NCBI GenBank assembly: GCA_951812955.1
Contig: OX638340.1
Coordinates: 1,536,001 to 1,600,000, forward strand
Length of the DNA: 64,000 nucleotides
Direction: 5' to 3'
DNA from: an uncultured Gemmatimonadota bacterium
GTDB taxonomy: Bacteria > JAAXHH01
Position numbers and translations under genes: made by a program
Shown here: piece after piece, positions 4,081 through 41,218 of the stretch
Numbering within the stretch: position 1 is the first letter of the stretch
How the letters are laid out: every line of letters starts with the position of its first letter
The notes under the pieces: generated by a model
Told to the model about the DNA's origin: nothing
Databases searched by the model: none
Seen by the model: only the letters and a program-made list of their open reading frames with translations

Positions 4081-4118
4081 CCTGGTTAAAAACTGTAACC
4101 GGGTATGTTATTTTGCCT
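4081..4118. terminator. Putative bidirectional intrinsic terminator between convergent purK and the Sel1-repeat gene
   Basis: Hairpin CCUGGUUA-aaaacug-UAACCGGG (8 bp stem including one U-G pair) followed by the U-rich tract tatgttattttg. Confidence 0.45.
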
Positions 4119-23091: not shown

Positions 23092-23618
23092 CGGGGATCG
23101 CCTGGCCTTCGGGTAGCCCGTATGGCGTTCTTCCGTGTTCCGCATCGATCGGCACCGGGCATCCGTACCGCAACCTTGCAGAATCTGAACAACGCTGATT
23201 TCAGTTCGGAAATGCCGGGAAAAGTCCTGCACTTGAATGGCCCGGAAACACCATGTCCCAACGGTTCTCCGGCTCCCAAAACAGATACCTCATTATATGC
23301 GCGGAGGGGCTTCCAGTCAATACCTTTTTCCGGGGACCGGAGCGCCGCCGCGCCCATGGTGCGCGGGAACCTCGCCGGACGGTCAAGGATGGCTTTCCTG
23401 CAAGAGCTACTAAATCAAAATCTGTGATTTAACAAGGATTTAACCTCAGAGAAACACTTGCGAAACAATAAGGTTGTATATTAGATTTCTGTGTTTGTTT
23501 CTGCGAATACGTGCAAGAGGATGTGTAAATTACCGTGGCGATCCGGACTCCTGTAACCAGGCGGCCCGGTTACCCGGGCAACGATTCATGGAATATCCAA
23601 CAGGGAGGAGCAATACTC

Positions 23619-26878: not shown

Positions 26879-27007
26879 CGCTTGTTCGTTTGATTCCACC
26901 TGAATCAATCCATGCCGCTCGATAGTCAAGAAACCGACCGTCAATTCCAGCCCGCTTTACATTTACTTACCAGGTTTGTGATGCTGGTGGTGCTTATGGG
27001 TAAGCCT

Positions 27008-29233: not shown

Positions 29234-29425
29234 GACATTGTTAGAAAGTAACATAAAAAACAAAAACGCCCGGCCCTGGATTAAACCGCTCCAGGACCGG
29301 GCTTTTTTCTGTATTGAACAGCGCATCTTTCGTCTCGCGCTGACGTTCAGGACAAGTCTGAGCACACGCGCACTCACGCCCACACTCTCACGCGCTCACA
29401 TCCACGCCCCCACTCACGCTTACAC

Positions 29426-32400
29426 CTACGCCCAGGCTCGCTTGACGCTCGACGTGACCCAGTTGCTCAGGTCTTCGAATATCGTATAGACCGTCGGCAG
29501 CAGGATGAGCGTCAGTATACCCGAGGTGGTCAGGCCGCCAACCAGGGCCAGGCTGACCGGACCCCACTGGTTGGCGCCGCGGTCTTCCACTGGACCGAAG
29601 AACTCGGGGAAGAGAAGCGGAGCCACCATGGGCAACAGGCCGAAGATGGTGGTCAGGGACGTCATCAGGATGGGCCGCAACCGATGCCGGCCGCCCAGGA
29701 GGAGGGCCTCGGTGCGCGTCATCCCCTCTCTGCGCAAATGGTTAACGTGATCGATGAGGACGATAGCGTTGTTTACCGCAAGTCCCGACAGAACGATGAT
29801 CCCCAGGTATGAGTTCGTGTTCAGCGTCGTGCCGGACAGGTAGAAAACGATGAAAGCGCCAACCAGTCCGCACAGTACCGACAACAGAATCGTGAAGGGC
29901 TGGATGAAGGACTCCGAAATTGCCGCCATGATCAGGTAGATGAGCACCACAGAGAGCAGGATGGCGAAGAGGAACTCGCCCTGCGATTCACGCATCATGT
30001 TGAAATTGCGCCCCATGCTCCACGTGTACCCTGGAGGCAGTTCGATACCCTCCATCATCTCGGTCACCTGGGTGTTGATGCGCCGCGTGCCCGGTCCCGT
30101 CGTGTTGCCGCCCACTTCCACCTGAGATTCCCGGTCATGCCGCTCGATGACGTCGGGTCCCTTCTGCCGCGAAAAGCTGGCCAAGTTCCCCATGGGAATC
30201 ATCCCGCCTTCAGCCCGTTCGAAAGTCATGTTCTGCAGTTTCTGCAAGCTGGCACGGTCCTCTTCCTCGAGGTGCAACAGAATGTCCACCTCGCGGTCGT
30301 CGGCCTTGAATTTGCCCCTCGCCCGGCTGCTCAGCGCAGCCTGCACGGTACGGGCCGCCTGTCTCGGGGAAATGCCGTAGGTCTGTGCCATGGCCCGGTC
30401 GACCTGCACCTGGATCTCCTCGTCGCCTCGCTCCAGGCTGGTATCCACGTCCTTCAGTCCTGGGATGACCTCCATCCGGGTACGGAGATCATCGGCGATA
30501 TTGGAAAGCACCGACATGTTGTCGCCGCGCAGTTCCACGTCCACGCCCGACTGCCCGCCGCCATATCGGCGCATCCGGCCGGGTCTCCACCGCACGCCGG
30601 CAATCTCGGGCAGCGAGCTGGTGATCCTGGTCTGAAGCTCGGTGGCAGACTCCTGCCGATCCTCGGGCGGAGTCAGCACGATGCGGAGATTTGCCCGGCG
30701 AAGGCTGCCGTAGGACGAAATGGACTCGATGTGGAATTCGTCCTTGCGGTCCAGCAGGAGTGTTTCGACGTCCGTAAAGACTTCCCTGACGTCCTCAATG
30801 CTGTAGCTGCCCGGCAGATCCGCGGCTATCGCTATATCCCGCGTAGGCGCCCTGGGCTGGAACTCCGTCTCGATGTTCTGGTACAGCCAGTAGCTACCGT
30901 AAAGGATCGTACCGAAGGCAATCACGGTTACGAACCGGTGGCGCAGGTTCCAGGCAAGGACAGACGTGTAATATCCGGAAATCCGCGCGAAGAACGCCGA
31001 GGGCTTGCCCAGTGGCCGGTTGAACAGCCTCGAGGAAACCAGCGGAATGAGCGTCAGCGCGATGAAGACCGCCGCCACCATGACAATGCAGAATGTGACG
31101 ACGAAGTCCTTCATGAAGAGCATGAACCGGCTGCCGCCACCCAGGAATACGAGGGGCATGAAGACGCAAAGGGTCGTCGCCGTGGCCGCGATGATGGCCA
31201 TGGTTACCTCGCGGGTGCCCACCACGGCTGCTATCCGCGCCGGCAGGTTGGATTCCTGCCGGTGGCGGTAGATGCTTTCAAGCACCACCACGGCAGCGTC
31301 CACGAGCATGCCCACCGCCAGCATCAGGCCCATGAGCGAGATCAGGTTGATGGATACCGTGGACCCCGCCCCCTGTCGGAGCAGATACATGAAGGTGAAG
31401 GTACAGATGATCGATATCGGTATGGCCAGGCTGATAATCAGCGTGCTACGTAAGTTGCGCAGGAAGAGAAACAACACGATGACGGCCAGCATGCCGCCCA
31501 GAAGTCCCGTGTTCCTCAGGTCAGAAAGCCGGTCCGTTATGCTCTGGGACTGGTCGAAGAATACCCGGGTTTCCAGGCCCGCGAACCGGGGCTGCGTCAT
31601 GAGTTCATCCAACACGGACTGGGTGCGTTGGGCCACGTCCACGATGTTGGCCGTGGACGTCTTGTATACCCGGATCGTGACTGCATCCACCCCGTTCAGA
31701 CGCTGGAAACTGTCGTCTTCCGGGTAGTCGAACCTCACCTCCGCCACGTCGCGCAGCGACAGGGACGTACCGGGTATGGGCAGGTTCGCCACCTCGTCGG
31801 CCGCCCGGTATTCGTTTACGGATCGGACCGAATACTTCCGTCCGCCCTCGGTGACGGTCCCGGCCGTCAGGGTGACGTTGTTCTGCACCAGGGTCTGGCT
31901 GAGATTGAACAGATCGAGGTTGTGGGACTGCAGCTTCTCGTTGTCCACGTGCACGAGCAACTGCTTCTCGACCATCCCGCTGATTTCCACGTTCGCCACG
32001 CCATCCACGCGCTGGATCTGCGGCTGGATCACCTTGGTGACGATGTTGTAGAACTCCGCGGGGTCCCCGCTCCACGCCACGCTGAAATTGTAGATGGGCA
32101 TATCGTTCGGGTTCCAGCGCCGGATCCGGATGCGTTCGACGTCGGCGGGCAGTTCGCCCCGGACCTGATCGATCCGGTCCCGGACCTCCATGGCCGCCAT
32201 GTTCATGTCCGTCCCGGTCTCGAACTCGATGCGCACCCGCGCGTTGTCGTCGCGGGAGTTGGACTCCATGCTCTTCATGTTGCTCAGCGTGCCGAAGGCG
32301 TCCTCCAGCGGCCGCGTAATCAGCCGTTCCACTTCCTCGGGCGACGAGGAGGGGTAGGGCACGCTGACGTTCAGGGACGGGAAGGACATGTCCGGCAGGA

Positions 32401-32506
32401 ACATCAACGGTAGCTTGGTGTAGGATATCATACCCAGCGTGACGACACTGACGATGATCATGATCGTCGTCACCGGGCGGTTTACGGAAAACTCGGCTAT
32501 GCTCAT
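29426..32506 (-). CDS. RND efflux transporter permease subunit (AcrB/MdtC-like, HAE-type)
   Basis: 1026 aa, 12-TM RND architecture with large periplasmic loops. GMLVDAAVVVLES in TM4. 4-nt overlap with the upstream RND gene. Confidence 0.9.
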   Translation of the reverse strand: MSIAEFSVNRPVTTIMIIVSVVTLGMISYTKLPLMFLPDMSFPSLNVSVPYPSSSPEEVERLITRPLEDAFGTLSNMKSMESNSRDDNARVRIEFETGTDMNMAAMEVRDRIDQVRGELPADVERIRIRRWNPNDMPIYNFSVAWSGDPAEFYNIVTKVIQPQIQRVDGVANVEISGMVEKQLLVHVDNEKLQSHNLDLFNLSQTLVQNNVTLTAGTVTEGGRKYSVRSVNEYRAADEVANLPIPGTSLSLRDVAEVRFDYPEDDSFQRLNGVDAVTIRVYKTSTANIVDVAQRTQSVLDELMTQPRFAGLETRVFFDQSQSITDRLSDLRNTGLLGGMLAVIVLFLFLRNLRSTLIISLAIPISIICTFTFMYLLRQGAGSTVSINLISLMGLMLAVGMLVDAAVVVLESIYRHRQESNLPARIAAVVGTREVTMAIIAATATTLCVFMPLVFLGGGSRFMLFMKDFVVTFCIVMVAAVFIALTLIPLVSSRLFNRPLGKPSAFFARISGYYTSVLAWNLRHRFVTVIAFGTILYGSYWLYQNIETEFQPRAPTRDIAIAADLPGSYSIEDVREVFTDVETLLLDRKDEFHIESISSYGSLRRANLRIVLTPPEDRQESATELQTRITSSLPEIAGVRWRPGRMRRYGGGQSGVDVELRGDNMSVLSNIADDLRTRMEVIPGLKDVDTSLERGDEEIQVQVDRAMAQTYGISPRQAARTVQAALSSRARGKFKADDREVDILLHLEEEDRASLQKLQNMTFERAEGGMIPMGNLASFSRQKGPDVIERHDRESQVEVGGNTTGPGTRRINTQVTEMMEGIELPPGYTWSMGRNFNMMRESQGEFLFAILLSVVLIYLIMAAISESFIQPFTILLSVLCGLVGAFIVFYLSGTTLNTNSYLGIIVLSGLAVNNAIVLIDHVNHLRREGMTRTEALLLGGRHRLRPILMTSLTTIFGLLPMVAPLLFPEFFGPVEDRGANQWGPVSLALVGGLTTSGILTLILLPTVYTIFEDLSNWVTSSVKRAWA

Positions 32507-35500
32507 AGCTCTGCCACCTCCTGGGACACCGGTTGCCCGGTTGTTCTTGTGAATAGCTCGTATACCTTTGCCACGGCCGTCTCGATCGTCATGTAGATGA
32601 GCGGCACGAGGACCAGCGTCACCACCGTACCGGCGATCAGGCCGCCGATCACGGTGATGGCCATGGGCGCACGCAACTCGGCGCCTTCACCCACGCCGAT
32701 GGCCATGGGCAGCAAGCCGAGCACGGTGGTTGCCGTCGTCATCATGATGGGCCACAACCGAGTCTGCGCCGCCTCGACAATGGCGTCCTGCAGTTCCGTT
32801 CCCTTCCGGCGCAACTGGTTGATGTAGTCCACCAGCACGATAGCGTTGTTTACCACGATCCCGGTCAGCATGATCACTCCGATCAGCACAACCACGCTGA
32901 TCGTCTGGCCCGTGAGCACCAGCGTCGCTACTACGCCAATGATCGAGAACGGAAAAGTGAACATAATCACGAAGGGATGGAGCAGCGATTCGAACTGCGA
33001 CGCCATGACCAGATAGACGAGAAAGATCGAGAGCAGAATGGCGAACTGCAGGCTCGTGAAAGCCACCTGCATTTCCTCGTTCTGCCCCTTTATCCCCACG
33101 ACGAAATCGATAGGAAGCATGAAGCCGTCTATGATCCCCTGAATGTCTTCGGCCGCGTCTCCGAGCGAACGGCCCGACAAACCCGCGGACACGATGGCGA
33201 CCCGTTGCTGGTTGACCCTCCTGATCTCGCTCGGGCCCTGGGCGACACGGACTTCCGCCACGGCCGAGAGCGGAACGGACACCGCGCCTTCCGGGTTTAC
33301 CACCAGCCGCCGTATGGCGTCCAGGCTCAGCCGGGTCTCGTCCTCGGCCCACACACGGATGTCGATCTTCCGGTCCCGCCTCGTTAGCTCCGTGGCCACG
33401 TTGCCCTGGACCTTGTTCTGAACGATCTGGGTGACTGTGCCCAGGTTGAGGCCCAGGTTGGCAAGCTTCCTTCTATCGAAGAGGATCTGCACCTCGGGGT
33501 TTCCGCCTTCCATGCTGGCCTTCACGTCGGTCAGGCCGGGCACCAGGGACATCTCCGACGCGAGGTCTTCGGAAACTTCCGTCAGCCGGGTAAGGTTGTA
33601 TCCGCTGACTTCCACCTCCACCGGATTCTTGAAGCTGAAGAGCGCGGGACGGGCGAACTCGGGCGCTTCGATGCCGGGTATGGGTTCGAAACTGGTCCGC
33701 AAGCGGTTCATGACTTCCTCTTCCACCGCACCGCGGAGTCCGGGTTCAAGCCGGATGTGCAACTGCCCGATGTTCTCCCGTTCCTCGCCGGCGTTGCCGC
33801 CGGACTGGCCCATGGTTCCCGCCAGCACGTACACCGTGCTCACTTCCGGGTAGTCTGAGGCGATGTCCGACATGCGAATCAACACGTCCTCGGTTACCGG
33901 CAGCGGCGTACCCACGGGCAGCTTGACATTGACGAAGAACTCGCCCTGGCTCATCTGCGGGATCAGTTCGATACCGATCGTGGGAACGACATAGAGGGAA
34001 CCTGCCAGCACGGCGGTCCCTGCGAAAAGCGTGAGCGCGCGGTTGACCAGGGCCCATCGGAGGAAGGGCGGGTAGGCCCGGCGGATGACGGGGAAGATCC
34101 GGTCGAAAACCCAGCCCGCGGGCCAGAGTACGGTGCGCACGATCGCCCATGCCGACCAGAGCGTCCATCGCACGAGATAAAACACGCCGGTTACGACATA
34201 TCCCAGTACCTGGGAGAACCCGTTCCAGATCGCGCCGAAAATGGTACGGATCTTACCCAGCGCCGTAGTCGGTTCCTGCGCGGATTGATCGTCCGCGTCG
34301 TTTATGGACGCTTCCCGGTCTCGGTGCAGGATCGACGATATCACCGGTATCAGGGTGACGGCCACCAGGGTGGCCACGATGAGCGAGAAAGTGACGGCCA
34401 GCGCAAGGTCCCGAAACAACTGACCCGCGATGCCTTCCACAAAGACGATGGGCACGAAGACGCACACCGTGGTTAGCGTTGCGGCCACGACGGCCTGTCC
34501 GACCTCCGATGCGCCGAGGCGAACCCGTTCCGCAACGGGCTGATCTCCCCCTCGTCTTCGGTGCCGGTCGATGCCCTCCAGCACCACGATGGAGTTGTCC
34601 ACCAGCATTCCGACCCCCAGGGCCAGGCCGCCGAGGGACATGATGTTCAGCGAGACGTCGAAAACATAGAGAAAGAAAAACGTGGTGACCACCGAAATGG
34701 GGATGGACACGCCGATGATGAGACTGCTCGAACTACGTAGGAAGAGATACAGGACCAGGATGGCGAGTATACCGCCGTACAAGGCCGTCTTGAGCACTTC
34801 GTCCACCGACTGCTGGATGAAAATCGACTGGTCGAAGACGACTTCCAGATTCACCCCGGCGGTGAGTCCCTCCATGTCCGCCCGCACCGAGTCCAGCCGG
34901 TCCTTGACCACGCGCCCGACCTGGATCGTATTGGTTCCGGCTTCCTTGTAGATGGCGATCTCGATACTTTCCCGGCCGTCGATCCGCGCGGAGAGCTTGC
35001 GTTCCTTGTGGCTTTTTGAGACCGAGGCTACGTCGGAAAGCAGGATGGGCACGGTGTTGACCTGGCCGACGATGATATCGCCGATCTCGTCCACGGCCTG
35101 GAACTCGTTCAGGATTCGCACCAGGTATTCCGTCTCGCCGTCCTTGATGGTACCGCCCGCGATATTGACGTTTTCCTGCTCGAGCCGGGTGGCCACCTGG
35201 GTGATGGGAATCCCGAGGCTGGCCAGCCTGGATTCGTCCAGCTCTACGTGGATTTCTTCTTCCAGTCCACCGCTGATCTTGACGGCGGCGACGCCCTCGA
35301 GGGCTTCAAGCTCGCGCTTGATCTCCTCTTCCGCCATGATCCGAAGCGCGGTAAGGCTCTCGTTACCTGACAGGGCAATGCGCAGGATCGGGTCGAGGCT
35401 CGGGTCGAAGCGAAGCAGAATGGGCTTCTCGGCCGCCTGGGGCAAATTGAGCAGGTCGATCTTCTCCCGCACGTTCAGGCTGGCGAAGTCCATGTTGGTG

Positions 35501-35793
35501 CCCCACTCGAACTCCAGGATGACGTCGGACCGTTCCGGGCGCGATATGGAGCTGACGCGCACCACGCCGGTCACCACGCCCACCGCTTCCTCGATGGGTT
35601 CGGAAACGAGGTTCTCGATCTCGTTCGGTGCGGCGCCGATGTATTCGGTCCGCACCGTCAGGGTCGGGTACGTGATGTCCGGGAGCAGGTTGATGGGCAG
35701 CCGTGAGAATGCGATGGAGCCGAAGAGCAGCATCGCCGTCATCAACATGATGATCGTTACGGGCCTGCCGATGGAAAAACCGATGATTTTCAT
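32503..35793 (-). CDS. RND efflux transporter permease subunit (second paralogous subunit, MdtB/MdtC-like pair)
   Basis: 1096 aa. GMLVDNSIVVLEG in TM4. Tandem with the downstream RND gene, suggesting a heteromeric pump. Confidence 0.9.
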   Translation of the reverse strand: MKIIGFSIGRPVTIIMLMTAMLLFGSIAFSRLPINLLPDITYPTLTVRTEYIGAAPNEIENLVSEPIEEAVGVVTGVVRVSSISRPERSDVILEFEWGTNMDFASLNVREKIDLLNLPQAAEKPILLRFDPSLDPILRIALSGNESLTALRIMAEEEIKRELEALEGVAAVKISGGLEEEIHVELDESRLASLGIPITQVATRLEQENVNIAGGTIKDGETEYLVRILNEFQAVDEIGDIIVGQVNTVPILLSDVASVSKSHKERKLSARIDGRESIEIAIYKEAGTNTIQVGRVVKDRLDSVRADMEGLTAGVNLEVVFDQSIFIQQSVDEVLKTALYGGILAILVLYLFLRSSSSLIIGVSIPISVVTTFFFLYVFDVSLNIMSLGGLALGVGMLVDNSIVVLEGIDRHRRRGGDQPVAERVRLGASEVGQAVVAATLTTVCVFVPIVFVEGIAGQLFRDLALAVTFSLIVATLVAVTLIPVISSILHRDREASINDADDQSAQEPTTALGKIRTIFGAIWNGFSQVLGYVVTGVFYLVRWTLWSAWAIVRTVLWPAGWVFDRIFPVIRRAYPPFLRWALVNRALTLFAGTAVLAGSLYVVPTIGIELIPQMSQGEFFVNVKLPVGTPLPVTEDVLIRMSDIASDYPEVSTVYVLAGTMGQSGGNAGEERENIGQLHIRLEPGLRGAVEEEVMNRLRTSFEPIPGIEAPEFARPALFSFKNPVEVEVSGYNLTRLTEVSEDLASEMSLVPGLTDVKASMEGGNPEVQILFDRRKLANLGLNLGTVTQIVQNKVQGNVATELTRRDRKIDIRVWAEDETRLSLDAIRRLVVNPEGAVSVPLSAVAEVRVAQGPSEIRRVNQQRVAIVSAGLSGRSLGDAAEDIQGIIDGFMLPIDFVVGIKGQNEEMQVAFTSLQFAILLSIFLVYLVMASQFESLLHPFVIMFTFPFSIIGVVATLVLTGQTISVVVLIGVIMLTGIVVNNAIVLVDYINQLRRKGTELQDAIVEAAQTRLWPIMMTTATTVLGLLPMAIGVGEGAELRAPMAITVIGGLIAGTVVTLVLVPLIYMTIETAVAKVYELFTRTTGQPVSQEVAEL

Positions 35794-35839
35794 GTATAGA
35801 TTACCGTGTCACCTTGGAATTTGAGTTATTGTCGCAAAT

Positions 35840-36304
35840 TTAATGCTCGTCACCGATCAGTTCGTGAATCATCTGGACCAGTGCCTTGCTCGCCTCATCC
35901 ATGTTCGCCGACTCGCGGCGGGCCCCGAGGTAAAGATCCGCATACTGCTTGCAGATCGTAAGCGATGGCGCGAAGGCGCCGGCCGAATCCAGCTCGCGGC
36001 GCACACAGTCCACCGTACGATGAAACGTCTCGACCGTATCGAGGAACCCGTCCTTCAGTTCGGCCTCGCGCACTTTGCCCCAGATATCGGCCAGCACATC
36101 GCCTATTTCGGCCGGTTCGCAAACGCACAGGGTGTGCAGTTTCGGCCAGACCGCCCGGAACCGCTTCTCGACCTCTTCAAGCTTGTCCTCGCCGGGACTT
36201 TCAAGGGTCAGGGACCGCTGGATCAGTTTCTCGTATTCCGGTCCTTCCTGTGCCGCGGCGGGGATCGATATAGACGCAATAAGGAGCAATACTAACCAAC
36301 GCAT
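35840..36304 (-). CDS. Periplasmic hypothetical protein within the efflux operon
   Basis: Signal peptide MRWLVLLLIASISIPAAAQE. Four Cys. No recognisable family. Confidence 0.5.
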   Translation of the reverse strand: MRWLVLLLIASISIPAAAQEGPEYEKLIQRSLTLESPGEDKLEEVEKRFRAVWPKLHTLCVCEPAEIGDVLADIWGKVREAELKDGFLDTVETFHRTVDCVRRELDSAGAFAPSLTICKQYADLYLGARRESANMDEASKALVQMIHELIGDEH

Positions 36305-36380
36305 AATCTACCTCCCGTGACTGGGCATGTTGATTTCGCGTTCGTGTCTGACTCTTTGTGCTCGGTGATCGGTCAATTCG

Positions 36381-37994
36381 CTACTGCGGACGTCCGCCTC
36401 CATCCATCTTTCGCATATTGCGGAACTGCTCGATCATGAAAGCACGCTGCCTCTCTTCGTCCTCCGCGAAGCTCGGATCCTCTTCCACCTGCTTGTCGTA
36501 GGCCGCCTTGATCTCGGGATTCCGGAACATCCGCTCCTTCATCTGGGCGAGATCCATGTTCATCATACGGTTGCCGCCGCGCATGCCCCCGGTTCCGCCA
36601 CCGTCACCCTGTCCCGCGCCGCCCGCACCGGTCCTGCCGGATCCGCCGATTCCTTCCTGTGCCACCGGACGCCGTTCCGCGTTGCCCTGGCCGCCATCCG
36701 GGTTCGCCGTCGATGCTGCAGGCGCATCGGTCGATTCCGCACCCGAGCCGCCCCTACCTGCCGGCCGGGCGCCTGTTCCGCCATTCGTTCCTCCGGACCG
36801 TCCGCCCATTGCACCAGGCCTGCCGGCCATTCCCGATGGATCGCCGCCCATGCCACCGTCCATGCCTGCCGCGGCGGGCGGGGTCTGTCCAGCGATGCGT
36901 ACAGGCGCGCCGTTCCGGAGTCCTTCCTGGCCCACTGTAATGATGGAATCACCGTCGGACAGACCGGACAGCACCTCGACGTATTCCCCTTCGGCGATGC
37001 CGATTTCAAGGAGCCGCTTTTCGGCCGTGCCGTCCTGGAAAAGAAAGGCGTAGGATCCCTCCGCCTCGGCCACCAGGGCCTTCTTCTCGACCTGCAGCAC
37101 TTCTTCGTGGTTTGCGATCACCAGGTTGACGGTGGTAAACATGCCGGGTCTCAGCGTGCCTTGCCGATCCCTGATTTCCACCGTGACCTTTACCGTTCCG
37201 CTCTGGGGATCCACGACGGGACTGATCCGGGCGACCCGGCCCGCGTGGGTCTGGTCCGATCCCTCGACATTAATGCGCACGGACTGACCGGGCCGAACCT
37301 GTCCGATATCCTTTTCGGGCACGTATATGCGGGCAAGTAGCGGATCGAGATCCGCCGTCCGGAATACCACGTCATTCGCGTTCACCAGGTTTCCCACCTC
37401 GATCAACCGCTCCGTGATTATGCCGGAGAAAGGACTTCGAATCGTAGCGTATTCCAGTTGAAGCTTCGCCGACTCGTACTGGGTCTGTGCGGCCTCGTAC
37501 TGGAACTTCGTCTGTTCGAATTCCTGGCTGCTGAGCAGTTCCCGATCCAGCAGTTCCTGGGACCGATTGTAGTTCGATTCCAGGCTGTTCATGTTCACTT
37601 CCCGTTCCTTGAGCGTCAATTCCAGCGTGTCGGTGTCGAGCTGGGCAAGTGGCTGCCCTTCCTCCACGCGGTCGCCCTCCTCGACCAGGATGGTTTCCAC
37701 GAGCCCTTGCGTGCGGGAGACCACGTCCACGTGCCGCTCCGCCTCCAGCGAAGTGTAGGTCAGCAGCGTCGCGGCGATATTTCCCCGGCCCACGGTTTTC
37801 ACTTCGACCGGTATGGAAGCGCCGGTGCGCGCCATCGCGCCCATGCCGGGCCTGCCGCCGCGCTGAGCCTGATCTCCGTTTTCCTCCGCCTCCTCGTCGC
37901 CGCCGCAGGCGAGCGTGCCCGCCAACGCCAGTACCATCGACCAGGAAGCCAGTTTCCCTATCCCGAACCGCTTGAACATGAACTGCTCCTTCAA
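36381..37994 (-). CDS. RND efflux periplasmic adaptor (membrane fusion protein, HlyD family) with a long Gly/Met/Pro-rich C-terminal tail
   Basis: Lipoyl/beta-barrel MFP core (RPGMFTTVNLVIANHEEVL). About 170-aa tail rich in GG(M/T)GG and MxxM-like segments (GMDGGMGGDPSGMAGRPGAMGG ... MRGGNRMMNM). Confidence 0.85.
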   Translation of the reverse strand: MKEQFMFKRFGIGKLASWSMVLALAGTLACGGDEEAEENGDQAQRGGRPGMGAMARTGASIPVEVKTVGRGNIAATLLTYTSLEAERHVDVVSRTQGLVETILVEEGDRVEEGQPLAQLDTDTLELTLKEREVNMNSLESNYNRSQELLDRELLSSQEFEQTKFQYEAAQTQYESAKLQLEYATIRSPFSGIITERLIEVGNLVNANDVVFRTADLDPLLARIYVPEKDIGQVRPGQSVRINVEGSDQTHAGRVARISPVVDPQSGTVKVTVEIRDRQGTLRPGMFTTVNLVIANHEEVLQVEKKALVAEAEGSYAFLFQDGTAEKRLLEIGIAEGEYVEVLSGLSDGDSIITVGQEGLRNGAPVRIAGQTPPAAAGMDGGMGGDPSGMAGRPGAMGGRSGGTNGGTGARPAGRGGSGAESTDAPAASTANPDGGQGNAERRPVAQEGIGGSGRTGAGGAGQGDGGGTGGMRGGNRMMNMDLAQMKERMFRNPEIKAAYDKQVEEDPSFAEDEERQRAFMIEQFRNMRKMDGGGRPQ

Positions 37995-38136
37995 ATGTTA
38001 GACCCGGTGCACACCGGTCTCTTGATTTCTCCGGCCAACCTGCCCGCCCAAAGGGCTTTCCCTGCTACTTCAAAAGGACCCGGCCATCCGGACACGCCAT
38101 TGAATGGCACGGTGCCGGCCACTTCGGCCAGCCCCG

Positions 38137-38595
38137 CTATCTTCGACGGTATCCGCTTCTGAATCGCTCCTTGATCATGGTGAAGAACTTCGTCTGCTGT
38201 TCCGGGGTCAGCACCTCTTTGTGCGCCACGATGAAATCGAATACGATGGCCTCCCGTTCCGCCTGGAGCGAATCCATCTGCGCCTTGATCCGGTCGATCT
38301 CTCCGCGGTCTGTATCCGGCGCCATGAGCAGATCGTACAACTGGTCGCGTTTTTCTCGGTAACCTTCCCGGTAAGGCGTCAGTTGATCTCCGAGTCCGGA
38401 ACGCATTTGCCTGACCTGTTCCGCCTGTGTTTCAGTGAGACCGAGCCGTTCGGTTATGGACATCCTTCCCTCGCGCCGATCCTGCCGGTCGCGCCGTTCG
38501 TCGTCACCCCAGCGGTGATAGGCGCGGGTGGCCAGAGAGGCCAGGTTGATGACGGTCAGCAGGACCACGCCCCATATGATCAGTTTCTTCTTCAT
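38137..38595 (-). CDS. Spy/CpxP/ZraP-family periplasmic protein (LTxxQ motif)
   Basis: Signal/TM anchor, then two LTxxQ motifs (LGLTETQAEQV, VLTPEQQTKFF). Confidence 0.6.
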   Translation of the reverse strand: MKKKLIIWGVVLLTVINLASLATRAYHRWGDDERRDRQDRREGRMSITERLGLTETQAEQVRQMRSGLGDQLTPYREGYREKRDQLYDLLMAPDTDRGEIDRIKAQMDSLQAEREAIVFDFIVAHKEVLTPEQQTKFFTMIKERFRSGYRRR

Positions 38596-38668
38596 CTGCC
38601 CGGTTCTTTCCTCGATTTGCCGTCAGACTGAACGGCTTTTGTACCGGTGTGTTCGCTCATCTGCCGGA

Positions 38669-39172
38669 TTAATCCCCGATTTCGTCCAGGTCCGGCAGCA
38701 GATAGTCCAGCTCGACCGTCTCGGCCGAGATTTGCTGAAGATCATCGGCAAAAGAGTACGCCAGTATACCCGTTTCCGAAGGCATCGGTTCGACTTGCGC
38801 AGCTTCTCCTTCGGTGCCGCTGCCGAGATAGGCGCCGATCACGATTCCGGCGGCCATCGTGACGGCCATCAACGCCGGCCGGACGAGCAAGGCGATCCGC
38901 GTCCCGACCGTCGGACCAGGTTCGATGGAGTCCTCGCCTCGAAGAGCCGCCTCGAAACGCGTACGCAGCCGAAGGGTAGGTCCGGTCACGTGCAGAAGGC
39001 TATCGGAATGCCAGGTTTCCCGCAGCGCGTCTACCCGTTCACGGCATCGGGGGCAGGTACGCAGGTGCGCCTCGCACTGTACCCGTTCTTCCGACGGAAG
39101 TTCTCCGTCGATGTAGAGGATGATTCGATCTTCGAGGTGACGATGATTCACGATGGAAGCCCGCCTGGTCAT
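38669..39172 (-). CDS. Anti-sigma factor, zf-HC2 type, single-pass membrane protein
   Basis: HxxxCxxC zinc motif (CEAHLRTCPRCRE), a central TM helix (IALLVRPALMAVTMAAGIVIGAYL), located just downstream of the ECF sigma gene. Confidence 0.7.
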   Translation of the reverse strand: MTRRASIVNHRHLEDRIILYIDGELPSEERVQCEAHLRTCPRCRERVDALRETWHSDSLLHVTGPTLRLRTRFEAALRGEDSIEPGPTVGTRIALLVRPALMAVTMAAGIVIGAYLGSGTEGEAAQVEPMPSETGILAYSFADDLQQISAETVELDYLLPDLDEIGD

Positions 39173-39317
39173 GGTCGTGTGGGTTAATGGGACGGTGCCA
39201 CTACCCGTCCTGTTCGGTCACTACCCGTCCTGTCCCTTCCTAATGTGCTTAGACAATCCATCCGCTTCAACCATTCGTTTTTTGTGCATTGCCCAGCGGC
39301 AGAATCGGGGCGAACGT

Positions 39318-39908
39318 CTAAAGATCGCCCAGCAGCGGCCGCAGACGCTTGCCGAGGTTCGTCTTGGCCCGGTGCAGCAGGGACTCCACCGCGGAAGGCG
39401 AACATTCCATTACCTGGGCGATGGACTTGTATGACATTCGTTCGAAATGGGAGAGGATCAGGGCGGTACGCTGTCTTTCAGGAAGCGCGTCGATCGCCTT
39501 CCCGACGATGCGTTCCCTGTCCGCCTGCTGAAGTTCCTCCTCTGCGCCGACGCTCCGGTTACCGTGCGACGTCGCTTCATCGGCGCCTTCGTTCCAGAAG
39601 TCGAGGGCAAGCCACTGTAACCGGCGTTTCCGGCGCCGGACGTTCAGGCACTGGTTTACCGCGATACGGTAGAGCCAGGTGCCCGGGTCGGCATCCCCTC
39701 TGAACCGGTCGTATGCTTCCATGGCCCGGACGAAAACCTCCTGGGTAATGTCCTCCGCCTCCTGCGGATGTTCCATGAGCCGGTAGCAGGTCTGGTAGAT
39801 GCGCGCATGCCAGGCATCGAAGAGCCTTCGAAAGACCTCCTGCCGGTCTTCGGGAGCGTCTTCCCGGCGATCTCCGGATTGCTGTTTTTCGGCCACTGGC
39901 AACGGCAC
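39318..39908 (-). CDS. ECF sigma factor (RpoE-like sigma-70 family)
   Basis: Region 2 (FRRLFDAWHARIYQTCYRL...EDITQEVFVRAMEAYDRF) and a region 4 HTH (SYKSIAQVMECSPSAVESLLHRAKTNL). Confidence 0.85.
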   Translation of the reverse strand: MPLPVAEKQQSGDRREDAPEDRQEVFRRLFDAWHARIYQTCYRLMEHPQEAEDITQEVFVRAMEAYDRFRGDADPGTWLYRIAVNQCLNVRRRKRRLQWLALDFWNEGADEATSHGNRSVGAEEELQQADRERIVGKAIDALPERQRTALILSHFERMSYKSIAQVMECSPSAVESLLHRAKTNLGKRLRPLLGDL

Positions 39909-40231
39909 CTTTCAGTCTGTCCTGGCGGATCTGGGAAAACACGTGCGCCGTCAACAATACTGCGGGACGGACCATGAATTCCGCGGGCTATCTTACCCTT
40001 GCGCCTCGAACGAACGGTCGCTATAATGAAGACGTTCGAAAAACTACTGATTCCCATGCTGACGAACGCAATGGAACGCGATGCGACGGACCGTTCGACG
40101 GAGATCCCACGTCTTCCAGGGCTTTCGCCGGACCCGGTTTCCATCCAGAATATACCATTTGAACGCAGATTTCTTGTCTATATGTTGACCCGCCCGAAAG
40201 CGGAGAAGCCACGAAGCCTGCGCGACAGGGC

Positions 40232-41218
40232 ATGACGGAGGTGGACATGTCACCCATTACCGATGAGCAGATGGCATTCTTCAAAGACCAGGGATACCTG
40301 ATGGTGAGGGGGTTGCTGGATCAGGAGGAAGTACTCGATCCCGTGATCGAGGAATACGGTACCGTGCTCGATCAGTTGGCGGAAGAGCTTTTCCTGGCGG
40401 GTAAAATCGAATCGAAATACGAAGATCTGCCATTTGGCGAACGCATCACGAAAGTCTGGGGTGAAAGCGGCAAGGTCCATGCCCAGTGTTTCGATTTCAC
40501 CCTGCCCCAGGGCAACATCAAGGAAGACACGCCGTTCTGGTGCGGTCCGGCGGTGTTCAACGTCCTGACAGATCCGCGGCTGCTCGACGCCGTGGAGGCC
40601 TTCATCGGCCCCGAAATCTACTCCAACCCGGTCCAGCATGTACGCATCAAGCTTCCTGAACACTTGACGCCCATCAATCCGGCGACTGGGCGCATTCAGC
40701 TCGGCATATCCCCGTGGCACCAGGACAACGGCGTCGTCACGAAGGAGGCCGATGACACCCACATGCTCACGGTCTGGTTCTCGCTGAGGGAAGCGACGAT
40801 CGAACAGGGATGCCTCACCGTCATTCCCGAAAGCCACCGCGACGGCCTGCTGCACCACTGCCCTGACATCTGGGGCCTCGAAATTCCCGAGAAGGTGAAG
40901 GACCGGTCCGCCGCCGTTCCCATGCCGACCAAGCCCGGTGACGTCCTGTTCCTGCACAAGCACACCTGCCACTCGTCGCTGCCCAACAAGAGCAACGAGA
41001 TCCGGTGGAGCTACGACCTGAGGTACAACCCGATCGGCCAGGCCTCCGGACGGGGCGCCTTCCCGGGATTCGTGGCCCGCAGCCGGACCAATCCAGAGTG
41101 GGTCCTGACCGATCCCGTCGCGTGGAACCAGATGTGGCTGGATGCCAGGGACGCCCTCGCCGGCATGCCCAATCCGTCCTTCAACCGCTGGAGCAAGGAT
41201 CACGAAATCTGCGCGTGA
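40232..41218 (+). CDS. Phytanoyl-CoA dioxygenase (PhyH) family oxygenase (second copy in the window)
   Basis: FFKDQGYLMVRGLL N-terminus, HQDNG and later His characteristic of PhyH. Confidence 0.75.
   Translation: MTEVDMSPITDEQMAFFKDQGYLMVRGLLDQEEVLDPVIEEYGTVLDQLAEELFLAGKIESKYEDLPFGERITKVWGESGKVHAQCFDFTLPQGNIKEDTPFWCGPAVFNVLTDPRLLDAVEAFIGPEIYSNPVQHVRIKLPEHLTPINPATGRIQLGISPWHQDNGVVTKEADDTHMLTVWFSLREATIEQGCLTVIPESHRDGLLHHCPDIWGLEIPEKVKDRSAAVPMPTKPGDVLFLHKHTCHSSLPNKSNEIRWSYDLRYNPIGQASGRGAFPGFVARSRTNPEWVLTDPVAWNQMWLDARDALAGMPNPSFNRWSKDHEICA

What the first reader, a model, noticed from the sequence alone, without database searches (positions are those of the whole stretch)
29426..39908. Seven-gene envelope-stress/efflux module: ECF sigma, zf-HC2 anti-sigma, Spy/CpxP-like LTxxQ protein, membrane fusion protein, periplasmic unknown and two tandem RND permeases, with no outer-membrane factor
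Seen in sequence: all seven genes are on the minus strand with short gaps or 4-nt overlaps. Established knowledge: sigma / anti-sigma / periplasmic-sensor trios controlling RND pumps are known, e.g. cnrYXH-cnrCBA in Cupriavidus. Paired RND permeases (MdtB/MdtC) form heteromeric pumps. Inference: the Spy/CpxP/ZraP-like LTxxQ protein would act as the periplasmic sensor or chaperone, and the pump as a stress- or metal-inducible heteromeric RND system that borrows an outer-membrane channel encoded elsewhere.
Basis: partly seen in the sequence, partly recalled or inferred. Interest (0 to 1): 0.55.

Follow-up and report, generated by a model that had tools for sequence, protein, structure and literature searches.

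The report
Stress-sigma cassette wired to RND efflux pump
A seven-gene operon in an uncultured sponge/coral-associated bacterium joins a known type of envelope-stress switch (ECF sigma factor, anti-sigma factor, membrane-anchored Spy/CpxP-like protein) to a two-permease RND efflux pump; it is a real and tidy variant of known systems, with no sign that it senses metals.

Summary
Seven minus-strand genes (29426-39908) encode an ECF sigma, a zf-HC2 anti-sigma, a PF13801/LTXXQ protein, a lipoprotein membrane-fusion protein, a 154-aa secreted orphan and two RND permeases overlapping by 4 nt. Opposite-strand genes flank the cluster, and no outer-membrane factor lies in the 64 kb.

Six genes keep their order in all 14 related loci (Gemmatimonadota/Latescibacterota MAGs). 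The orphan is present in only 7 of the 15 loci counted with the window.

The sigma/anti-sigma/LTXXQ trio matches the published ECF281 context. It also resembles Phocaeicola vulgatus CirYZ-Spy, whose regulon has been tested. In other phyla the same trio usually sits beside MacB-type ABC efflux pumps that carry their own outer-membrane factor.

The metal reading fails every residue test:
- no CnrX ligands;
- no CusA methionine triad;
- no HME DFG-DGA-VEN motif;
- ZneA site residues absent.

Only a Met/Gly-rich tail on the fusion protein and Cys/His residues in the orphan keep it alive.

Most likely this is an autoregulated envelope-stress operon transcribed from conserved promoter-like blocks upstream of the sigma gene. 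It probably borrows a channel encoded elsewhere. It is a new variant of a known kind and of moderate interest.

The parts
40149..40180 (-). P1: conserved sigma-70-like promoter block (TAGACA/TTGACA ... TGGTATATT), about 250 nt upstream of the sigma gene
   Evidence: Conserved in 13 of 14 orthologous upstream regions while the spacer between the two elements varies. Sequence read. The 20-nt spacing is longer than the E. coli consensus, so the consensus scan did not call it. Function is inferred.
39991..40015 (-). P2: conserved G(T/A)TC-N16-TAAGA(T) block about 90 nt upstream of the sigma start; candidate ECF-autoregulated promoter
   Evidence: Conserved block in the ortholog alignment. The exact pattern occurs once on both strands of the 64-kb window. 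Among the 11 related loci scanned it matched upstream of the sigma gene, and nowhere else, in 7. Three loci (L011, L013, L017) carry a variant without an exact match. In L021 the only match lies elsewhere. Its role as a promoter is inferred, not shown.
39318..39896 (-). ECF sigma factor (192 aa from GTG 39896; longest ORF reaches 39908)
   Evidence: Sigma70_r2 and r4_2. TIGR02937 111 bits against a cut-off of 42.9. Start placed from the conserved RBS AAGGTG and ortholog ATG/GTG starts. 27% identical to CnrH.
38669..39172 (-). Class I (zf-HC2) single-pass anti-sigma factor with a ~50-aa periplasmic tail
   Evidence: PF13490 2.3e-10. H-x3-C-x2-C is present here but lost in the L011, L013, L014 and L017 orthologs. 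The membrane segment with the G-x-Y-L-G motif and the periplasmic motif (D-x-Phi-x-D/E-Phi-x3-S-Phi) are conserved into other phyla. No similarity to CnrY.
38137..38595 (-). Spy/CpxP/CnrX-superfamily protein (two LTXXQ motifs: LTETQ 53-57, LTPEQ 129-133) with a conserved N-terminal membrane helix
   Evidence: PF13801 56 bits and PF07813 33 bits, both above cut-off. AlphaFold2 domain 47-148 has pLDDT about 90. The Foldseek top hits (ranks 1-39) are all Spy, CpxP, CnrX, ZraP, NccX or the VirG-like protein. The N-terminal segment is the most conserved part: column identity 0.98 against 0.87. CnrX metal ligands are absent.
36381..37979 (-). Lipoprotein membrane-fusion protein (532 aa) with a Gly/Met-rich linker and a conserved ~55-aa C-terminal motif
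   Evidence: TIGR01730 262 bits; HlyD_D23 and HlyD_3. Start ATG 37979 and lipobox L-A-C from the alignment. Tail composition: Met 5-10% against 1.4-2.7% in the core, Gly 17-28%. The tail has no Pfam hit.
35840..36304 (-). 154-aa secreted/periplasmic all-helical orphan; an accessory gene, present in only some orthologous operons
32503..35793 (-). RND permease A (1096 aa), with a ~60-aa hydrophobic insertion between TM6 and TM7
   Evidence: ACR_tran 818 bits. Best solved relatives are MdtB (379 bits) and ZneA (329 bits). TM4 reads VDNS and TM10 reads VVNNAIV, so the equivalents of AcrB D408 and K940 are absent. Insertion shown.
29426..32506 (-). RND permease B (1026 aa); its start overlaps the stop of permease A by 4 nt
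   Evidence: ACR_tran 740 bits. Best solved relative MdtB, 317 bits. 31.7% identical to permease A. TM4 reads VDAA and TM10 reads AVNNAIV.
29271..29288 (-). Terminator-like hairpin with a T-run, 138 nt after the last gene
   Evidence: Consensus scan. It is one of two minus-strand terminator-like sites; the other (34451-34468) lies inside the RND-A gene. The total number of sites does not exceed the shuffles, so the evidence is weak.

Best explanation
This is one operon. An envelope-stress switch of the ECF281 / CirYZ-Spy type is fused to the genes of a tripartite-type RND efflux pump.

Proposed mechanism:
1. At rest, the single-pass anti-sigma factor holds the ECF sigma at the inner membrane through its N-terminal anti-sigma domain.
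2. Its membrane helix and short conserved periplasmic tail are contacted by the membrane-anchored Spy/CpxP-like protein. That protein acts as co-sensor or modulator, as CnrX does for CnrY and CpxP does for CpxA.
3. A periplasmic or membrane insult changes this contact. The insult is most likely organic toxicants or damaged envelope proteins rather than metal ions.
4. The anti-sigma factor is inactivated and the sigma is released.
5. The sigma transcribes its own operon from the conserved promoter block upstream of the sigma gene.
6. No second conserved promoter, no significant RNA structure and no convincing terminator lies between the regulators and the pump (the one consensus terminator-like match, inside the RND-A gene, is within the number expected by chance). 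The same transcript therefore also yields the lipoprotein adaptor, the orphan (where present) and the two translationally coupled RND permeases.
7. The pump docks to an outer-membrane channel encoded elsewhere.

Shown here: gene content, order, conservation, superfamily membership, absence of metal-site residues, absence of a nearby outer-membrane factor.

Inferred: co-transcription, autoregulation, the sensor role of the LTXXQ protein, the nature of the signal, heteromeric permease assembly.
For: 1. Domain architecture.
2. The six-gene core is syntenic in all 14 related loci at 83-96% DNA identity, and in L021 at 51% identity of the LTXXQ protein.
3. The layout 'sigma, zf anti-sigma at +1, PF13801 at +2' is the published definition of the ECF281 context (PMC7826278).
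4. In Phocaeicola vulgatus a sigma/anti-sigma pair is co-transcribed with a Spy-like gene. Deleting the anti-sigma factor up-regulates the sigma gene, the spy gene and neighbouring genes (PMC13114119). An equivalent three-gene operon is co-induced in Azospirillum (PMC12826043).
5. In 7 of 9 informative distant contexts (Ignavibacteriae, WOR-3, Stahlbacteria, Thermoanaerobaculia, Aerophobetes and others) the trio directly adjoins efflux-pump genes. In five of these an MFP gene is seen (L023, L025, L027, L030 and the P0056 context), with a MacB-type ABC permease in four of them; in L028 and L031 only an OMF gene is seen before the contig ends.
6. Two conserved promoter-like blocks lie upstream of the sigma gene. 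The P2 pattern is unique in the window.
7. The LTXXQ-MFP spacer varies in length and sequence and has no significant structure, with z-scores from -1.1 to +1.5.
8. The N-terminal helix of the LTXXQ protein is its most conserved region, with a polar Asn17. The anti-sigma membrane helix and periplasmic tail motif are conserved across phyla.
9. The zinc-finger ligands are lost in four orthologs. This argues against a cytoplasmic thiol/zinc input.
10. All metal-site tests failed.
Against: - There is no transcript or promoter-activity data. P1 has a non-canonical 20-nt spacer, and P2 does not match any ECF promoter consensus that I could verify.
- Gaps of 142-157 nt before the fusion-protein gene could hide a poorly conserved independent promoter.
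- The LTXXQ protein could have a cleaved signal peptide (possible SLA|T or TRA|Y sites) and act only as a soluble chaperone.
- The homolog sets used for the membrane-helix conservation argument were seeded partly on that segment (patterns). This biases the distant comparisons.
- The Met-rich fusion-protein tail and the invariant Cys/His of the orphan fit soft-metal binding.
- Both permeases lack the canonical proton-relay Asp408/Lys940, so their energetics, and even their transport activity, are unverified.
Confidence: 0.6

Rival explanations
1. Metal-responsive system of the CnrYXH-CnrCBA kind. The PF13801 protein senses periplasmic Cu/Ag/Zn/Ni/Co. The pump exports metal cations. The orphan acts like the CusF metallochaperone, and the Met-rich adaptor tail captures the metal.
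For: - PF13801 is the CnrX family.
- The ECF classification paper links ECF281 to heavy-metal stress.
- RND-A's second-best solved relative is ZneA (329 bits), and it scores 480 bits on TIGR00914.
- The adaptor tail has 5-10% Met.
- The orphan has invariant H57, C60, C62, H147 and H154 and sits where cusF-like genes sit in metal RND operons.
- One distant trio (L002) is followed by YHYH and SCO1/SenC genes.
Against: - CnrX ligands H42, H46, E63 and H119 are R, T, R and F/Y here. The periplasmic domain has one His and no Cys.
- BLASTP against CnrX and CnrY finds nothing.
- TIGR00914 scores are below the cut-off of 701 for both permeases.
- The DFG-DGA-VEN motif, present in CnrA, is absent.
- The CusA residues M573, M623 and M672 are absent.
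- ZneA D602, D654 and D658 are absent.
- Four distant copies of the trio carry MacB-type ABC pumps, which are not metal exporters as far as is known.
- The orphan is missing from more than half of the orthologous operons. Its distant paralogs keep only C60 and C118, which suggests a disulfide.
Confidence: 0.17
2. The trio is a self-contained stress module whose Spy-like protein is only an effector chaperone. The anti-sigma factor senses the signal by itself. The LTXXQ protein is cleaved from its signal peptide and refolds or holds damaged periplasmic proteins. It has no part in signalling.
For: - By sequence the protein is closer to Spy, CpxP and ZraP (19-24% identity in fold matches; profile E about 1e-4) than to CnrX (12-14%; E 0.5).
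- NCBI and JGI name homologs 'Spy/CpxP family protein refolding chaperone'.
- In P. vulgatus the Spy-like gene is the most induced member of the regulon.
- Plausible signal-peptidase sites follow the hydrophobic segment (sequence reading).
- The trio also occurs with no adjacent pump (L034, L002).
Against: - The hydrophobic segment is the best-conserved part of the protein. Residues W8, L12, L13, N17 and L21 are invariant down to 32% identity. This is unusual for a cleaved signal peptide and typical of a specific membrane-helix contact.
- Full-length NccX is among the fold matches.
- The fixed position directly after the anti-sigma gene across phyla suggests a stoichiometric partner.
Confidence: 0.3
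3. Regulators and pump are neighbours but are controlled separately. The pump has its own promoter and regulator elsewhere, and the conserved adjacency reflects inheritance within one narrow clade only.
For: - A 142-157-nt spacer precedes the adaptor gene.
- The 14 loci that share the RND arrangement all belong to one genus- or family-level clade at 83-96% DNA identity, so synteny alone is weak evidence of co-regulation.
Against: - Independent, non-homologous pairings of the trio with efflux pumps occur in at least five other phyla.
- The spacer has no conserved motif, and the P2 pattern was not found there in any scanned locus.
- No convincing terminator lies between the genes. The only minus-strand terminator-like match inside the operon lies within the RND-A gene (34451-34468), and the number of matches does not exceed the shuffles.
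- All seven genes share a strand between two opposite-strand neighbours.
Confidence: 0.12

Closest known systems
ECF281 group of ECF sigma factors (Casas-Pastor et al. 2021, PMC7826278)
   Same: The defining genomic context matches: a zinc-finger anti-sigma factor at +1 and a PF13801 'heavy-metal resistance' protein at +2 of the ECF gene.
   Different: The published description does not mention a pump in the ECF281 context; it mentions one only for ECF291/CnrH. Here an adaptor and two RND permeases follow in the same operon. The 'heavy-metal' label is not borne out by residues. Assignment of this sigma to the ECF281 HMM could not be tested.
Phocaeicola vulgatus CirY/CirZ with co-transcribed Spy-like gene (PMC13114119, 2026)
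   Same: An ECF sigma, an anti-sigma factor and a Spy-like protein lie in one transcription unit. The unit is autoregulated, as shown by an anti-sigma deletion, and is induced by host-associated envelope stress.
   Different: The CirY regulon contains peptidoglycan-related hydrolase genes, not an efflux pump. It comes from a different phylum.
CnrYXH-CnrCBAT of Cupriavidus metallidurans pMOL28
   Same: An ECF sigma, a small single-pass anti-sigma factor and a membrane-anchored PF13801-fold periplasmic protein control an adjacent RND pump. CnrX aligns colinearly with the LTXXQ protein through the membrane helix and both motifs.
   Different: - Gene order is Y-X-H-C-B-A there and sigma/anti-sigma/X/B/(orphan)/A/A here.
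- CnrY is not a zf-HC2 protein and shows no similarity.
- All the CnrX Ni/Co ligands are replaced.
- CnrA carries DFG-DGA-VEN and these permeases do not.
- cnr encodes its own outer-membrane factor CnrC and has one permease.
MdtABC (E. coli) / MuxABC-OpmB (P. aeruginosa) two-permease RND pumps
   Same: One adaptor gene is followed by two adjacent paralogous RND permease genes with abutting or overlapping reading frames. MdtB is the best solved relative of both permeases.
   Different: - The two permeases are 32% identical to each other, against 50% for MdtB/MdtC. They are about 26% identical to MdtB/MdtC.
- NCBIfam equivalog scores are 382-427 bits against cut-offs of 1584-1774.
- The equivalents of D408 and K940 are missing.
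- MdtABC is controlled by the BaeSR two-component system, not by an ECF sigma (established knowledge).
CpxP-CpxA, Spy and ZraP-ZraSR (Enterobacteria)
   Same: The same fold family and the same two LTXXQ motifs. CpxP and ZraP modulate a membrane sensor from the periplasm (established knowledge).
   Different: - The partner here is an anti-sigma factor, not a histidine kinase.
- The protein keeps a conserved hydrophobic N-terminus, probably an anchor.
- Scores are far below the equivalog cut-offs: Spy 27 of 174, CpxP 18 of 160, ZraP 21 of 200.
- The His-rich ZraP-type motifs are absent.
CusCFBA (E. coli): a small periplasmic protein inside an RND operon
   Same: A small secreted protein gene sits within the adaptor/permease gene block.
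   Different: - CusF showed no similarity at E<=1e-5 to any ORF of the window or the related loci.
- The orphan is all-helical, whereas CusF is a beta-barrel (established knowledge).
- The orphan is dispensable in 8 of the 15 orthologous loci counted with the window.
- Its distant paralogs lie in accessory islands, not pump operons.

Membership tests
Spy/CpxP/ZraP/CnrX superfamily (Pfam PF13801 Metal_resist / PF07813 LTXXQ) | Pfam model scores above the gathering cut-off | tested here: met
   PF13801 56.1 bits against 29.2; PF07813 32.9 bits against 24.3.
Spy/CpxP/ZraP/CnrX superfamily (Pfam PF13801 Metal_resist / PF07813 LTXXQ) | Two LTXXQ-type motifs on a helical-hairpin fold | tested here: met
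   LTETQ at 53-57 and LTPEQ at 129-133, with L53, Q57, Q133 and Q134 invariant. The AlphaFold2 domain has pLDDT about 90. Foldseek ranks 1-39 are all Spy, CpxP, CnrX, ZraP, NccX or the VirG-like protein, with target TM-scores 0.51-0.88 and about 0.65-0.88 for all but the NccX chain.
Spy, CpxP or ZraP orthologs (NCBIfam equivalogs) | Score above the curated equivalog cut-off | tested here: not met
   Spy NF007769 27 against 174; CpxP NF007687 17.8 against 160; ZraP NF008584 21.1 against 200; 'CpxP family' NF009391 46.8 against 148.
CnrX-type periplasmic metal sensor | Ni/Co coordination set H42, H46, E63, H119 (plus M123) | tested here: not met
   In the alignment with CnrX from pMOL28 the positions read R, T, R, F/Y and H in the window clade. 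The periplasmic domain has one His and no Cys.
CnrX-type periplasmic metal sensor | N-terminal membrane anchor, partnered with a small single-pass anti-sigma factor | tested here: inconclusive
   A hydrophobic N-terminus is present and is the most conserved region. Cleavage cannot be excluded. The partner is a zf-HC2 anti-sigma factor with no similarity to CnrY.
ECF sigma factors, group ECF281 | ECF core (regions 2 and 4 only) | tested here: met
   Sigma70_r2 and r4_2. TIGR02937 111.3 against 42.9.
ECF sigma factors, group ECF281 | zf-HC2 anti-sigma factor at +1 and a PF13801 protein at +2 | tested here: met
   Definition taken from PMC7826278.
ECF sigma factors, group ECF281 | The sigma sequence is assigned to the ECF281 group HMM | not testable with these tools
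   The ECF Hub group models are not available here, and the paper's supplements are not held.
Zinc-binding (ZAS) class I anti-sigma factors | H-x3-C-x2-C motif in the anti-sigma domain | tested here: met
   H36-x3-C40-x2-C43 in the window protein; PF13490 40.8 against 22.2. The ligands are replaced in the L011, L013, L014 and L017 orthologs, so zinc binding is probably not essential to the mechanism.
HAE1 multidrug RND permeases (AcrB/MexB type) | Family model above cut-off, and the proton relay D407, D408, K940, R971, T978 | tested here: not met
   TIGR00915 scores 420 and 434 bits against 940. NF033617 scores 640 and 678 against 1250. D408 is N or A and K940 is N in both paralogs and in all orthologs. 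D407, R971 and T978 are kept. Only the superfamily model ACR_tran is met.
HME (heavy-metal efflux) RND permeases (CzcA/CnrA/ZneA/CusA) | TIGR00914 above cut-off; TM4 DFG-x3-DGA-x3-VEN (divalent type) or the M573/M623/M672 triad (CusA type) | tested here: not met
   TIGR00914 scores 376 and 480 bits against 701. TM4 reads LGVGMLVDNSIVVLEG and LAVGMLVDAAVVVLES, against LDFGLIIDGAVIIVEN in CnrA. The CusA Met triad positions read N/I/L and A/R/Y. ZneA D602 aligns to G, and D654 and D658 fall in a deletion. The ZneA residue roles come from memory of Pak et al. 2013; the residue identities were confirmed in the PDB sequence.
MdtB/MdtC-type heteromeric RND pair | Orthology to MdtB and MdtC | tested here: not met
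   NF007798 scores 382 and 417 against 1584. NF007905 scores 401 and 427 against 1774. Identity is about 26%.
MdtB/MdtC-type heteromeric RND pair | Two paralogous permease genes in tandem behind one adaptor gene | tested here: met
   A 4-nt overlap at 32503-32506, which is conserved in 12 of the 13 related loci that hold both RND genes.
MdtB/MdtC-type heteromeric RND pair | Formation of a mixed trimer | not testable with these tools
   This needs co-purification or cryo-EM.
RND membrane-fusion (adaptor) proteins | TIGR01730 above cut-off; lipoyl and beta-barrel domains | tested here: met
   262 bits against 94.9. HlyD_D23, HlyD_3 and Biotin_lipoyl_2. The lipobox L-A-C is conserved.
Complete tripartite efflux operon | An outer-membrane factor (PF02321) encoded in or next to the operon | tested here: not met
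   The OMF profile found no hit at E<=10 among the ORFs of at least 50 aa of the 64-kb window or of the 14 orthologous loci. It did detect the OMFs in L023, L025, L027, L028, L030 and L031.

The most novel reading that the evidence does not exclude
The sigma / zf-anti-sigma / membrane-anchored Spy-like trio is a phylum-spanning sensor cassette dedicated to tripartite efflux pumps, whatever their energy source (RND here, MacB-type ABC elsewhere). It would report pump load or substrate accumulation in the periplasm rather than general misfolding or metals. In this clade it may read the pump directly through the adaptor's conserved Met-rich C-terminal domain, which is tethered by a flexible Gly-rich linker. 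The permeases themselves would belong to an uncharacterised RND branch that runs on a non-canonical proton relay, with a single TM4 Asp and Asn in place of Lys940.
Probability: 0.15. Interest if true: 0.65.

Novelty: new variant of a known kind. Interest (0 to 1): 0.35.

Why it matters
The ECF281-type trio is widespread but has almost no functional data. It carries a 'heavy-metal' label that rests only on the Pfam family name.

This locus and its relatives show that the trio is repeatedly hard-wired to envelope-spanning efflux pumps of two different energy classes, and that it lacks every known metal-site signature. That redirects experiments on the cassette toward efflux and envelope stress. 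It also warns against automatic 'heavy metal sensor' annotations.

The host clade is made up of uncultured sponge and coral symbionts. An inducible efflux system there may matter for tolerance of host or neighbour secondary metabolites.

None of this overturns current understanding. It is an incremental, testable refinement.

Tried and rejected
1. CusF-like or other known function for the 154-aa orphan: rejected.
- No Pfam or NCBIfam hit, even at E<=10.
- A profile search of 1.8 billion representatives gave only 19 hits.
- Contexts of distant paralogs are accessory islands with IS1595, HicA and small peptidases, not pumps.

2. Remnants of the orphan gene in operons that lack it: none found by tblastn at E<=10.

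3. A cis-regulatory RNA in the leader or spacers: no evidence.
- No Rfam match at E<=1 over 35700-40400.
- The LTXXQ-adaptor spacer folds no better than shuffles in 8 loci.

4. An ECF-type bipartite promoter motif shared by distant copies of the trio: enumeration of 5-mer / 14-19-nt spacer / 4-mer pairs gave nothing above noise.

5. A second copy of the P2 motif before the pump genes: none.

6. Relationship of the adaptor's C-terminal motif to the LTXXQ family: hhalign probability 0.3%.

7. CnrYXH orthology: BLASTP of the anti-sigma factor against CnrY and of the LTXXQ protein against CnrX found nothing significant. The sigma is 27% identical to CnrH, the generic ECF level.

8. Supplementary description of ECF281: not held.

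9. The third homolog-search slot, the metagenome scan and one fold-search slot were left unused, because no open question would have been settled by them.

Full report
**Observation**

The seven minus-strand ORFs are present at the stated coordinates. Pfam and NCBIfam give clear assignments:
- an ECF sigma (39318-39908);
- a zf-HC2 anti-sigma factor (38669-39172);
- a PF13801/PF07813 protein with two LTXXQ motifs (38137-38595);
- an RND adaptor (36381-37994);
- a 154-aa protein with a signal-like N-terminus and no family (35840-36304);
- two ACR_tran permeases (32503-35793 and 29426-32506) whose frames overlap by 4 nt.

The other gaps are 46-157 nt. The neighbours on both sides are on the opposite strand: an ECF-sigma::ankyrin fusion at 26912-29233 and a PhyH dioxygenase at 40232-41218. 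The block is therefore cleanly delimited.

Ortholog alignments refine two starts. The adaptor starts at ATG 37979, behind a GAAGGAG ribosome-binding site, and has a conserved lipobox L-A-C. The sigma gene starts at GTG 39896.

**Origin and conservation**

Homologs of the orphan and of the LTXXQ protein come almost only from MAGs labelled Gemmatimonadetes or Candidatus Latescibacterota. Isolate names such as SB0665_bin_8, IRC1_bin_16 and Plut_88884 suggest sponge or coral sources, though the records shown do not state a host. The nearest locus (L008, OY762445.1) is 95.6% identical in DNA and the others are 83-88% identical.

All 14 related loci carry sigma, anti-sigma, LTXXQ, adaptor, RND-A and RND-B in the same order (RND-B is cut off by the contig end in L010). 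This includes L021, where the LTXXQ protein is only 51% identical.

The orphan is present only in the window, L008, L010, L015, L016, L017 and, truncated, L020. No remnant is detectable in the other loci. It is a real gene: 19 aligned homologs show 64-92% identity and 66 invariant columns. It is nonetheless an accessory gene.

**The regulatory trio**

The layout 'ECF sigma, zinc-finger anti-sigma at +1, PF13801 protein at +2' is what the ECF reclassification gives as the context of group ECF281. That group was split from the old ECF20, which also gave rise to ECF291/CnrH (PMC7826278).

An experimentally studied example of such a trio exists in Phocaeicola vulgatus. The genes cirY, cirZ and a Spy-like gene are co-transcribed and strongly induced during colitis. 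Deleting the anti-sigma gene cirZ up-regulates cirY, spy and two neighbouring genes (PMC13114119). A similar three-gene operon is co-induced in Azospirillum brasilense (PMC12826043).

The trio is therefore a known kind of module, though its signal is unknown.

**The LTXXQ protein**

Superfamily membership rests on three results:
- A profile of 17 homologs hits Spy (1.3e-4) and ZraP (2.4e-4), and more weakly CnrX (0.5), among solved structures.
- The AlphaFold2 model of residues 47-148 has pLDDT about 90.
- Its top 39 Foldseek matches are exclusively Spy, CpxP, CnrX, ZraP, NccX and the VirG-like protein.

Membership of the superfamily is established. Orthology to Spy, CpxP or ZraP is not, because the equivalog scores are far below the cut-offs.

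I fetched cnrYXHCBA from pMOL28. Aligned with authentic CnrX, the protein is colinear through the membrane helix and both motifs. However, the Ni/Co ligands H42, H46, E63 and H119 are replaced by R, T, R and F/Y. The periplasmic domain contains one His and no Cys.

The N-terminal hydrophobic segment is the most conserved region of the protein, with column identity 0.98 against 0.87 among close homologs. W8, L12, L13, N17 and L21 are invariant down to 32% identity. I read this as a retained membrane anchor that makes a specific helix-helix contact. One caveat applies: the homolog searches were partly seeded on this segment.

**The anti-sigma factor**

The anti-sigma factor has four parts: an N-terminal zf-HC2 domain, a linker, one membrane helix with a conserved G-x-Y-L-G motif, and a ~50-residue acidic periplasmic tail. 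The tail carries a short motif that is conserved into Ignavibacteriae, WOR-3 and Aerophobetes.

Four orthologs have lost the H-x3-C-x2-C ligands. A cytoplasmic zinc/thiol switch is therefore unlikely to be the input, and the conserved periplasmic and membrane parts are the likelier input side.

**Link between trio and pump**

Outside this clade, the same trio adjoins efflux-pump genes in the following contexts:
- L025: OMF, adaptor, MacB fusion.
- L030: OMF, adaptor, ABC, two FtsX-type permeases.
- L023: adaptor, ABC, two FtsX-type permeases, with an OMF-adaptor-RND operon divergent upstream.
- L027: OMF, adaptor.
- L028 and L031: an OMF gene directly after the trio.
- The P0056 contig: adaptor, ABC, FtsX directly upstream of the trio.

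Two contexts have no pump, L002 and L034.

Seven of nine informative distant contexts therefore pair the trio with a tripartite-type efflux system, with a MacB-type ABC permease seen in four. This is the strongest comparative argument that the adjacency is functional. It also speaks against a metal-specific role.

**Transcription signals**

The ~350-nt region upstream of the sigma gene contains two blocks conserved among orthologs:
- P1: TAGACA/TTGACA ... TGGTATATT at 40180-40149.
- P2: G(T/A)TC-N16-TAAGAT at 40015-39991.

The P2 pattern occurs once in the whole window. Among the 11 related loci scanned, an exact match lies upstream of the sigma gene, and nowhere else, in 7. Three loci carry a variant without an exact match, and in L021 the only match lies elsewhere.

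The spacer before the adaptor gene varies from about 36 to 160 nt. It has no conserved motif and folds no better than shuffled sequence. Consensus scanning finds two minus-strand terminator-like sites, one inside the RND-A gene (34451-34468) and one after RND-B (29288-29271). The total does not exceed what shuffles give, so this evidence is weak. No Rfam family matches.

The simplest reading is a single transcription unit driven from upstream of the sigma gene, with a basal and an autoregulated promoter. This is an inference.

**The pump**

Both permeases are most similar to MdtB among solved structures. RND-A is next most similar to ZneA. They are 31.7% identical to each other and 21-27% identical to MdtB, MdtC, AcrB and CusA.

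No subfamily model reaches its cut-off. The residue tests gave the following:
- The CusA methionine triad is absent.
- The HME TM4 motif DFG-x3-DGA-x3-VEN, which CnrA shows in the same alignment, is absent.
- ZneA D602 aligns to Gly, and D654 and D658 fall in a deletion.
- The canonical HAE1 proton relay is incomplete in both paralogs and in all orthologs. TM4 has a single Asp (VD-N/A/S) and the Lys940 position is Asn.

RND-A also carries a ~60-residue Trp-rich hydrophobic insertion between TM6 and TM7.

After the conserved core, the adaptor has a Gly-rich linker of variable length and a strongly conserved ~55-residue C-terminal motif. The tail has 5-10% Met, against about 2% in the core, and matches no family.

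No outer-membrane factor is encoded in the window or near any ortholog. The MacB-linked relatives, by contrast, usually carry one.

**The orphan**

The model is a seven-helix bundle with no informative structural neighbour. Distant family members (E from 1e-10 to 1e-4) keep only the C60/C118 pair, probably a disulfide. They lie in accessory regions with IS1595 transposases, a HicA toxin and small trypsin-like peptidases. One of them is in the same MAG as L010.

The orphan appears to be a lineage-specific secreted protein that was inserted into the operon in some strains. A CusF-like role is not supported, although H57, C60, C62, H147 and H154 are invariant among the operon-borne copies.

**Verdict**

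The finding is real and correctly described. The analogy to cnrYXH-cnrCBA is apt at the level of logic. But the locus is not a member of the Cnr system, of the HME or CusA permeases, or of the MdtBC orthologous group.

It is best filed as an ECF281-type / CirYZ-Spy-type envelope-stress cassette fused in one operon to an uncharacterised two-permease RND pump without its own channel.

What is modestly new:
- the recurrent pairing of this cassette with efflux pumps of two energy classes;
- the evidence against the 'heavy-metal' label;
- the odd adaptor tail and proton-relay residues.

I score interest at 0.35.

Noticed in passing
window 26912-29233 (+): A 773-aa protein with an ECF sigma core (Sigma70_r2 57-115, r4_2 152-202) fused to a long C-terminal ankyrin-repeat region (~290-770). 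No membrane segment is evident. The gene is convergent with the last RND gene and is absent from this position in L018 and L017. Ankyrin is not among the C-terminal extensions discussed in the ECF reclassification paper. It may be an undescribed type of ECF regulatory extension.
   Followed up: partly
window 4108-5880 (-) and 5978-8050 (-): Two large Sel1-repeat proteins (13 and 16 repeats) lie in a stretch of lower G+C (0.51-0.55 against about 0.61). Together with the ankyrin protein, these eukaryote-like repeat proteins would fit a host-associated lifestyle, which the isolate names of the related MAGs also hint at.
   Followed up: no
window 21787-23232 (-): An HtrA/DegP/DegS-like protease (Trypsin_2 plus PDZ) lies about 6 kb from the operon. 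It could be the site-1 protease acting on the anti-sigma factor, but nothing here links the two.
   Followed up: no
window 36381-36881 (-), C-terminal ~167 residues of the adaptor: A variable Gly-rich linker is followed by a conserved ~55-aa Met-rich helical motif (RMMxMDLxQMKERMFQNP..AYDKQVEEDP..ERQRAF). The motif has no family match and no relation to the LTXXQ profile. It is absent from the adaptors of the MacB-linked relatives, which are 358-396 aa long.
   Followed up: partly
window 29426-35793 (-), TM4 and TM10 of both permeases: Both RND paralogs, in all orthologs, lack the equivalents of AcrB Asp408 and Lys940. TM4 reads VD-N/A/S and TM10 reads V-N-N-A-I. The 'VEN' of TM4 is replaced by LEG or LES. 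RND-A has a ~60-aa Trp-rich insertion between TM6 and TM7. This may mark an uncharacterised RND branch.
   Followed up: partly
L043 6001-6624, L045 6001-6459, L046 6001-6501, L007 2087-2542: Distant paralogs of the 154-aa orphan sit in accessory-looking regions next to IS1595 transposases, a HicA toxin and small Trypsin_2 peptidases, in the same kinds of samples. One is in the same MAG as L010. They may be a family of secreted helical proteins of mobile islands.
   Followed up: partly
L009 12218-12349: The adaptor-RND-A spacer of this ortholog, which lacks the orphan, contains three to four tandem copies of a ~20-nt unit (AACACGGCAACTCATAATGT).
   Followed up: no
L047 27904-28026 (pMOL28) and L002 10567-11340: A YHYH-domain gene lies next to the PF13801-containing regulatory genes both in pMOL28, just upstream of cnrY, and in a distant trio context, where SCO1/SenC follows. 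This may be a recurring association in the metal-linked members of the family.
   Followed up: no
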